Shown here: piece by piece, positions 12,347 to 12,676 of the stretch | Layout of the letters: each line of letters opens with the position of its first letter | How positions within the stretch are numbered: the stretch's first letter is position 1 | Assembly (NCBI RefSeq): GCF_009914755.1 | Contig: NC_060933.1 | Length of the DNA stretch: 64,000 nucleotides | Reading direction: 5' to 3' (one strand) | Origin: the human T2T-CHM13v2.0 reference genome, Homo sapiens | Notes under the pieces: generated by a model | What the model saw: only the letters and a program-made list of their open reading frames with translations | Database searches by the model: none | Told to the model about the DNA's origin: nothing | Translations under genes and position numbers: made by a program

Positions 12347-12676
12347 ACACACACACACACACACACACACACACACACAGATTAGCAGGGTGTGGTAGCA
12401 CACGCCTGTAATCCCAGCTACTTGGGAGGCTGAAGCAAGAGAATTGCTTGAACTTGGGAGGCGGAAGTTGCAGTGAGTCGAGACGGTGCCACTGCACTCC
12501 AGCCTAGGCAATAGAGGGAGACTCTGGTCTCAAAAAAAAAAGAAAAAAAAAAGTGTTTTGTTATTTTCAGTGTACAAGTCTTTCACCTCTTTGGTGAAGT
12601 TAATTTCTAAGCATTGTATTCTTTTTAATGCCATTGTAAATAAAATTGTTTTCCTAATTTAAAAAAAAAAAAAAAA
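12347..12676 (+). mobile_element. Retrotransposed composite: (CA)n + diverged Alu right arm + A-tract + antisense L1M fragment + AATAAA + poly(A)
   Basis: Interrupts L1 at cctaaaacca|t|aaaaaccctag; AATAAA at 12639-12644; poly(A) from 12661. Confidence 0.85.

What the first reader, a model, noticed from the sequence alone, without database searches (positions are those of the whole stretch)
12347..12676. Anachronistic cargo: old Alu arm plus L1M fragment retrocopied into a young L1
Seen: a diverged, CpG-decayed Alu right arm preceded by (CA)n, its A-tract, ~110 bp of antisense old L1M, AATAAA (12639-12644), then poly(A) 16 nt later. All of this sits inside an L1PA3/4-age element at T|AAAAA, with no real TSD (one T lost, CA microhomology at the 5' junction). 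Old repeats cannot predate their young host here. Inference: this is the 3' end of a Pol II polyadenylated transcript, or an orphan 3' transduction, copied from another locus. Repeat masking would hide it as separate fragments.
Basis: partly seen in the sequence, partly recalled or inferred. Interest (0 to 1): 0.7.

Follow-up and report, generated by a model that had tools for sequence, protein, structure and literature searches.

The report
Young retrocopy of non-coding chr20 RNA
A 313-base stretch of old repeat DNA on chromosome 9 is a near-exact, recent copy of one intergenic site on chromosome 20 with an A-tail that the source lacks, likely pasted in by LINE-1 machinery from a stray polyadenylated RNA, which is a real but already-known kind of event.

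Summary
Window 12348-12660 has one near-identical match elsewhere in the genome, G000:C20:9889433-9889715 (minus strand): 1 substitution in 281 nt. That source carries the whole Alu with its own target duplication and has no A-tract after the copy's end. The copy ends 16 nt after AATAAA, gains 11 new A's, and sits at a T|AAAAA site with one T lost and no TSD. Its 5' end falls at a 9-base, one-bulge microhomology. It is far younger than the host L1 (private divergence 2.2%; P about 1e-4 for co-insertion). No same-strand young L1 or SVA hexamer array lies within 120 kb upstream of the source, so a trans-mobilised, cryptically polyadenylated Pol II RNA (0.68) beats an orphan transduction (0.15). 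Pol III Alu transduction is unlikely: the B box is mutated and a T5 run precedes the AATAAA. It works like a class 1 TSIP or non-genic retrocopy but fails that class's TSD criterion. Short target deletions with microhomology are described for 5'-truncated insertions. New member of a known kind. No transcript, polymorphism or ape data could be checked.

The parts
6984..12347 (+). Host L1, 5' part (starts at the 5' UTR; itself interrupted by a young Alu at 11060-11385)
   Evidence: private divergence 2.2% from 15 of 24 relatives
12339..12347 (+). Host end that matches the source Alu linker/(CA)n start: 9 bases with one bulged source base; the last two (CA) are the simple microhomology
12346..12379 (+). 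(CA)17; the source has (CA)19 inside the Alu's middle linker; the 5' truncation falls at its 5' edge
12380..12531 (+). Diverged Alu right arm copied from the C20 source; holds the only substitution, where the chr9 copy keeps the common Alu base
12532..12552 (+). Old Alu A-tail (templated; 2 A shorter than at the source)
12553..12660 (-). Old L1 fragment, antisense in the cargo; begins with the 3' copy of the source Alu's degenerate TSD; identical to the source over 12549-12660 (112 of 112)
12639..12644 (+). AATAAA, 16 nt before the copy's end
12661..12676 (+). A16: 11 A not in the source plus the host's own 5 A (endonuclease-type T|AAAAA site, T lost)
12672..13225 (+). Host L1, 3' part; stops without a 3' end or tail

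Best explanation
The insert is a recent 313-nt copy of one intergenic C20 locus plus 11 A's that the source lacks, likely made when L1 ORF2p reverse-transcribed a cryptically polyadenylated Pol II RNA into an older L1 on chr9. Steps: (1) Shown: single source, copy direction C20 to chr9, non-templated A's 16 nt after AATAAA, U/GU-rich sequence downstream at the source. (2) Inferred: a minus-strand RNA was cleaved and polyadenylated there. (3) Inferred: ORF2p nicked the bottom strand at TTTTT/AT, and the RNA's poly(A) primed target-primed reverse transcription. (4) Inferred: the cDNA was joined at the start of the (CA)n by annealing to the host's 9-base look-alike end, which removed one T instead of duplicating the target. 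(5) Shown by divergence: this happened well after the host L1 inserted. (6) Inferred: it is inherited rather than a cell-line event, since the chr9 copy keeps the common Alu base where this genome's source differs. It is probably functionless; its poly(A) signal is antisense to SLC24A2.
For: One full-length match other than self among the 40 scored of 6061 candidates, 99%. The L1 part matches 100% at C20 and at most 87% elsewhere (40 of 1375 scored). 1 substitution in 281 nt. The source has 3 A in the next 20 nt, longest A run 3, 45% T downstream. The source Alu is complete, with a degenerate TSD at both ends, inside an old L1 collinear across it. Empty site T|AAAAA. The 5' junction is the best bulged match in 20 kb of upstream source, 1 of 19,986 positions scoring 9. 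Co-insertion predicts 11.5 substitutions, P(<=1)=1.2e-4; 0.022 at half rate. No minus-strand L1 at >=80% identity and no SVA hexamer array in 9.87-10.01 Mb. PMC11702581 (passages): 5'-truncated L1/pseudogene insertions show target-site deletions of 0-20 bp with microhomology, and source mRNAs are enriched for 3' UTR Alus. PMC5110952 (parts 1-2 of 4): non-annotated intergenic sequence with cryptic AATAAA and poly(A) is a known template.
Against: No transcript, promoter or poly(A)-site record was seen; a literature search for an upstream lncRNA gave 0 papers. The copy ends on T, not the preferred CA/A cleavage dinucleotide (recalled preference). The new tail is short (11 A). No TSD. PMC2912911 (passages) finds short TSDs and microhomology rarer for trans-mobilised copies than for cis L1, which leans toward an orphan transduction. 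The microhomology score is post hoc: 2 of 20 other host TAAAA sites find an equally good match somewhere in the same 1 kb. The date rests on one substitution.
Confidence: 0.68

Rival explanations
1. Orphan 3' transduction: a young L1 or SVA upstream of the source, absent from this assembly, read through to the cryptic AATAAA, and 5' truncation removed the element itself.
For: Same 3' anatomy. No TSD plus microhomology is more typical of cis-mobilised truncated L1 (PMC2912911 passages). 48 orphan transductions are reported in 1,019 genomes (PMC12350158 passages).
Against: The only young L1 in 140 kb is on the wrong strand and 5'-truncated (9901342-9904003, +); no SVA hexamer array. No sister copies of the source's upstream or downstream flank (best other hits 80% and 74%, 40 candidates scored each). 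No row for these places in the SVA supplements searched (search terms rested on approximate, recalled coordinates).
Confidence: 0.15
2. DNA-level templated insertion: a break in the host L1 invaded C20 through the 9-base microhomology, copied 315 nt and returned at a shared T; the A-run then grew by slippage.
For: Strong 5' microhomology; the last T can be read as host-derived; no TSD; class 2 TSIPs have such junctions.
Against: Needs A5 to become A16 with no template (source has none; none of 24 relatives shows an expanded run), an end point 16 nt after AATAAA (2.8% by chance) and a break at an endonuclease-type site (0.4-1.1% of host bases). The L1 part is antisense and homologous to 11701-11789, not to the insertion site, so gene conversion is excluded.
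Confidence: 0.08
3. Alu-driven 3' transduction: Pol III transcribed the full-length source Alu, read 108 nt into the flank, and the RNA was polyadenylated at the flank's AATAAA.
For: The shape fits: truncated Alu, tail, flank, new tail. The A box is intact and a T4 lies 3 nt past the copy's end. AAUAAA-dependent polyadenylation of Pol III SINE RNA exists in rodents, and CPSF30 sits on human Alus (passages).
Against: The B box is mutated. Four T>=4 runs lie inside the copied flank, three of them before the AATAAA, including TCT5, a terminator measured as effective (PMC8466645 passages). A screen of 118,489 full-length AluY confirmed no Alu transduction (bioRxiv 2024.04.29.591526, parts 1-2 of 3), though it did not cover old or truncated Alus.
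Confidence: 0.04
4. The cargo entered together with the host L1 by a double template switch during the host's own reverse transcription.
For: Near-seamless insertion without TSD; template switching by ORF2p is described.
Against: 1 substitution observed against 11.5 expected (P 1.2e-4).
Confidence: 0.02

Closest known systems
Class 1 templated sequence insertion polymorphisms (TSIPs; PMC5110952)
   Same: Non-annotated distant donor, donor intact, AATAAA 10-30 nt before a non-templated A10-40, insertion at TTTT/A.
   Different: No TSD (class 1 requires at least 5 bp); the 5' junction has class 2-like microdeletion and microhomology; polymorphism untested.
5'-truncated processed-pseudogene / trans retrocopies with target-site deletion (PMC11702581)
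   Same: Endonuclease site, poly(A), 5' truncation, short target deletion with microhomology, Alu near the RNA's 3' end.
   Different: The source is unspliced intergenic repeat sequence with no known gene; germline rather than induced in culture.
Orphan 3' transductions (PMC12350158)
   Same: Unique-source sequence outside exons with a poly(A) tail and no mobilising element; by that paper's operational definition it would probably be labelled orphan.
   Different: No donor L1/SVA upstream of the source in this assembly.
Alu-driven 3' transduction (sought and not confirmed in bioRxiv 2024.04.29.591526)
   Same: Alu plus 108 nt of its own 3' flank plus a new tail, with a traceable full-length parent Alu.
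   Different: Old Alu with a mutated B box; Pol III terminators inside the carried flank; Pol II-type poly(A) signal.

Membership tests
Class 1 TSIP | Distant, intact, unique donor | tested here: met
Class 1 TSIP | Non-templated poly(A) 10-30 nt after AATAAA | tested here: met
   16 nt spacing, 11 new A
Class 1 TSIP | Insertion at 5'-TTTT/A-3' | tested here: met
   empty site T|AAAAA in 22 of 24 relatives
Class 1 TSIP | TSD of at least 5 bp | tested here: not met
   1-nt deletion, no duplication
Class 1 TSIP | Polymorphic among people | not testable with these tools
   one human assembly only; no row at the target position in a cut supplement
Class 2 TSIP | No poly(A) signal or tail | tested here: not met
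   both present
L1-mediated trans retrocopy | Poly(A) tail at an ORF2p endonuclease-type site, source lacking the tail | tested here: met
L1-mediated trans retrocopy | Source RNA exists and is independent of an L1/SVA | tested here: inconclusive
   no donor element in 140 kb; no transcript data available
L1-mediated trans retrocopy | Loss of introns (proof of RNA intermediate) | tested here: inconclusive
   cargo is collinear with the source, no splice junction spanned
Orphan 3' transduction | Same-strand L1/SVA upstream of the source | tested here: not met
   (this assembly only)
Alu 3' transduction | No Pol III terminator (T>=4) inside the carried flank | tested here: not met
   four runs including T5
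Alu 3' transduction | Parent Alu with intact A and B boxes | tested here: not met
   A box intact, B box mismatched to the recalled consensus and to the young Alu

The most novel reading that the evidence does not exclude
This is a true Alu-driven 3' transduction: an old Alu on chr20 was transcribed by Pol III through leaky terminators, polyadenylated at a flanking AATAAA and retrotransposed with 108 nt of flank. A genome-wide AluY screen found no such case, and its filters (full-length AluY, TSD required) would have missed this one.
Probability: 0.04. Interest if true: 0.7.

Novelty: new member of a known kind. Interest (0 to 1): 0.3.

Why it matters
Modestly. It is a clean, datable example of L1 machinery likely copying unannotated intergenic RNA in the germline. 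It is invisible to repeat annotation (it reads as microsatellite + Alu + L1 pieces inside an L1) and to TSD-based transduction finders. It predicts a usable poly(A) site at C20:9889433 (minus) and suggests that TSD-less, all-repeat retrocopies are undercounted. It can also create false chr9-chr20 translocation signals in short-read data (inference). No functional effect is evident.

Tried and rejected
Donor search: blastn of host-L1 pieces over C20:9.87-10.01 Mb found one young L1, plus strand and 5'-truncated; no SVA hexamers; the only GC-rich island is 7.3 kb downstream of the poly(A) point. Sister copies: none found for the cargo or the source's flanks among scored candidates (the search gives lower bounds). 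Pseudo-TSD AAAACC rejected because it is in the empty site. The first microhomology scan wrongly included one cargo base in the host end and was redone. Gene conversion from the old L1 rejected. Assembly artefact or cell-line event considered unlikely: new A-tail, different CA and A lengths, and a substitution where chr9 matches 12 of 12 readable other Alus (13 examined; chosen by likeness to the chr9 query) while the source differs. Literature: 10 searches showed no listing naming this locus. Supplement searches were negative but weak: PMC12350158 file 2 is cut within Table 18, so Tables 19-20 were unseen; PMC12593883 had 0 hits; the PMC9311842 supplement was unreadable; PMC4419790, the TSIP catalogue, is not held. 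The event may therefore be listed in a table I could not see.

Full report
Observation. To rebuild the empty site I used the 24 best other-locus L1 copies fetched. All 24 have CCA-T-AA, and 22 have the full TAAAAA. The chr9 allele reads CCA, then cargo, then A16, then CCC. One T is missing, nothing is duplicated, and 11 A's are new. Family labels (L1PA3/4, L1M, AluS, AluYb8, MaLR LTR, PAK5) are recalled and come from no call.

Source. A search of the window's own genome with 12380-12660 gave one full-length match besides self: G000:C20:9889433-9889715, minus strand, 99%. The other 42 rows are Alu-only at 81-92% (40 of 6061 candidates scored). The L1 part alone matches C20 at 100% and other loci at 87% or less. 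The alignment shows one substitution, a 2-nt shorter Alu tail and 17 vs 19 CA units. Direction is clear. At C20 the Alu is full length, has a degenerate TSD on both sides, and interrupts an old L1 that is collinear across it; the cargo carries only the 3' half and the 3' TSD copy. After the copy's last base the source has no A-tract (3 A in 20 nt, longest run 3) and is 45% T with several TGTG/TTTT words, as expected downstream of a cleavage site (established knowledge of Pol II 3'-end signals). An AATAAA at that spacing occurs before 2.8% of positions.

Age. The host L1's private branch is 2.2%, from three-point distances over about 950 nt with 15 of 24 relatives (9 dropped as too short). Co-insertion would give about 11.5 substitutions in 260 non-A-tract bases; 1 is seen (P 1.2e-4; 0.022 if the cargo mutates at half the rate). 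The copy's age is 0.09 of the host's (95% interval 0.002-0.48), about 2-4 Myr at assumed rates of 0.5-1e-9 per year, upper bound 11-21 Myr. At the differing base the chr9 copy agrees with 12 of 12 readable other Alus and the source differs, so the change likely arose at the source or the copy came from another haplotype. That argues against an artefact or a cell-line event (inference).

5' junction. The host's last 9 bases match the source's Alu linker and first CA units with one bulged base. This is the single best right-anchored match in 20 kb upstream (1 of 19,986 positions), and it lies one CA unit from the observed junction. As a control, 2 of 20 other host TAAAA sites find an equal score somewhere in the 1 kb, so such a match is not rare; what is informative is that the junction sits on it. 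PMC11702581 (passages) reports short target-site deletions with microhomology for 5'-truncated insertions. PMC2912911 (passages) finds short TSDs and microhomology less often in trans than in cis, which counts against my reading.

What drove the RNA. In C20:9.87-10.01 Mb the only L1 at 80% identity or more is plus-strand and lacks its 5' UTR, and there is no SVA hexamer array. So neither a read-through donor nor an L1 antisense promoter is present in this assembly. The upstream 10 kb holds old L1, Alus and LTR-like pieces. A CpG island lies 7.3 kb downstream of the poly(A) point, probably the PAK5 promoter (recalled). The promoter of the source RNA is unknown. A Pol III origin from the Alu is disfavoured: the B box is mutated and T4, T4, T5 runs precede the AATAAA, and TCT5/T5 terminate effectively (PMC8466645 passages).

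Mechanism. Most likely (0.68): a Pol II RNA ended at this cryptic signal; ORF2p nicked the host L1 at TTTTT/AT and primed on the poly(A); the cDNA was joined at the (CA)n start by microhomology, losing one T. Rivals: orphan transduction from an element missing here (0.15), DNA-templated insertion (0.08), Alu Pol III transduction (0.04), co-insertion (0.02). The RNA step is inferred from the tail and signal; no splice junction proves it.

Comparison. It works like a class 1 TSIP (PMC5110952, parts 1-2 of 4 and passages) but is not filed as one: the TSD criterion fails and polymorphism is untested. Under the rule in PMC12350158 (passages) it would probably be called an orphan transduction without a donor. 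The Alu-transduction screen (bioRxiv 2024.04.29.591526, parts 1-2 of 3) covered full-length AluY only and confirmed none. Also seen: PMC12358842 passages, PMC1920257 abstract and outline, PMC12593883 and PMC9311842 listings. Ten searches showed no paper naming this locus. Supplements that were cut, unreadable or not held may list it.

Verdict. Real, well resolved and young, but a new member of a known kind. SLC24A2 runs on the minus strand (hub annotation), so the imported poly(A) signal is antisense to it. Interest 0.3.

Noticed in passing
window 11060-11399: A second, very young insertion in the same host L1: a full-length Alu with the 7-nt right-arm insertion recalled for AluYb8/9, a 44-nt A-tail and a perfect TSD of about 15-17 nt. 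No row for it in the cut MEI supplement.
   Followed up: partly
window 6358-6978: A tail-less 620-nt L1 ORF2 piece abuts the host L1's 5' end head to tail, through a few unassigned bases. It differs from the host's matching part at 31 of 618 comparable bases, as much as unrelated copies do, so it is an independent element rather than a local duplication.
   Followed up: partly
window 13225: The host L1 stops abruptly with no 3' UTR, tail or evident TSD, and the missing end is not elsewhere in the window. A later deletion or an endonuclease-independent insertion (PMC1920257 abstract) are both possible; unexplained.
   Followed up: partly
L002:1977-2372 (G000:C20 about 9889909-9890304): An LTR-like element (recalled as MaLR/MST type) lies about 30 nt upstream of the source Alu, antisense to the inferred RNA; a candidate bidirectional promoter.
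   Followed up: no
L017:1000-2100 (G000:C20 about 9881-9882 kb): CpG island 7.3 kb downstream of the inferred poly(A) site on the same strand; recalled as the PAK5 promoter.
   Followed up: partly
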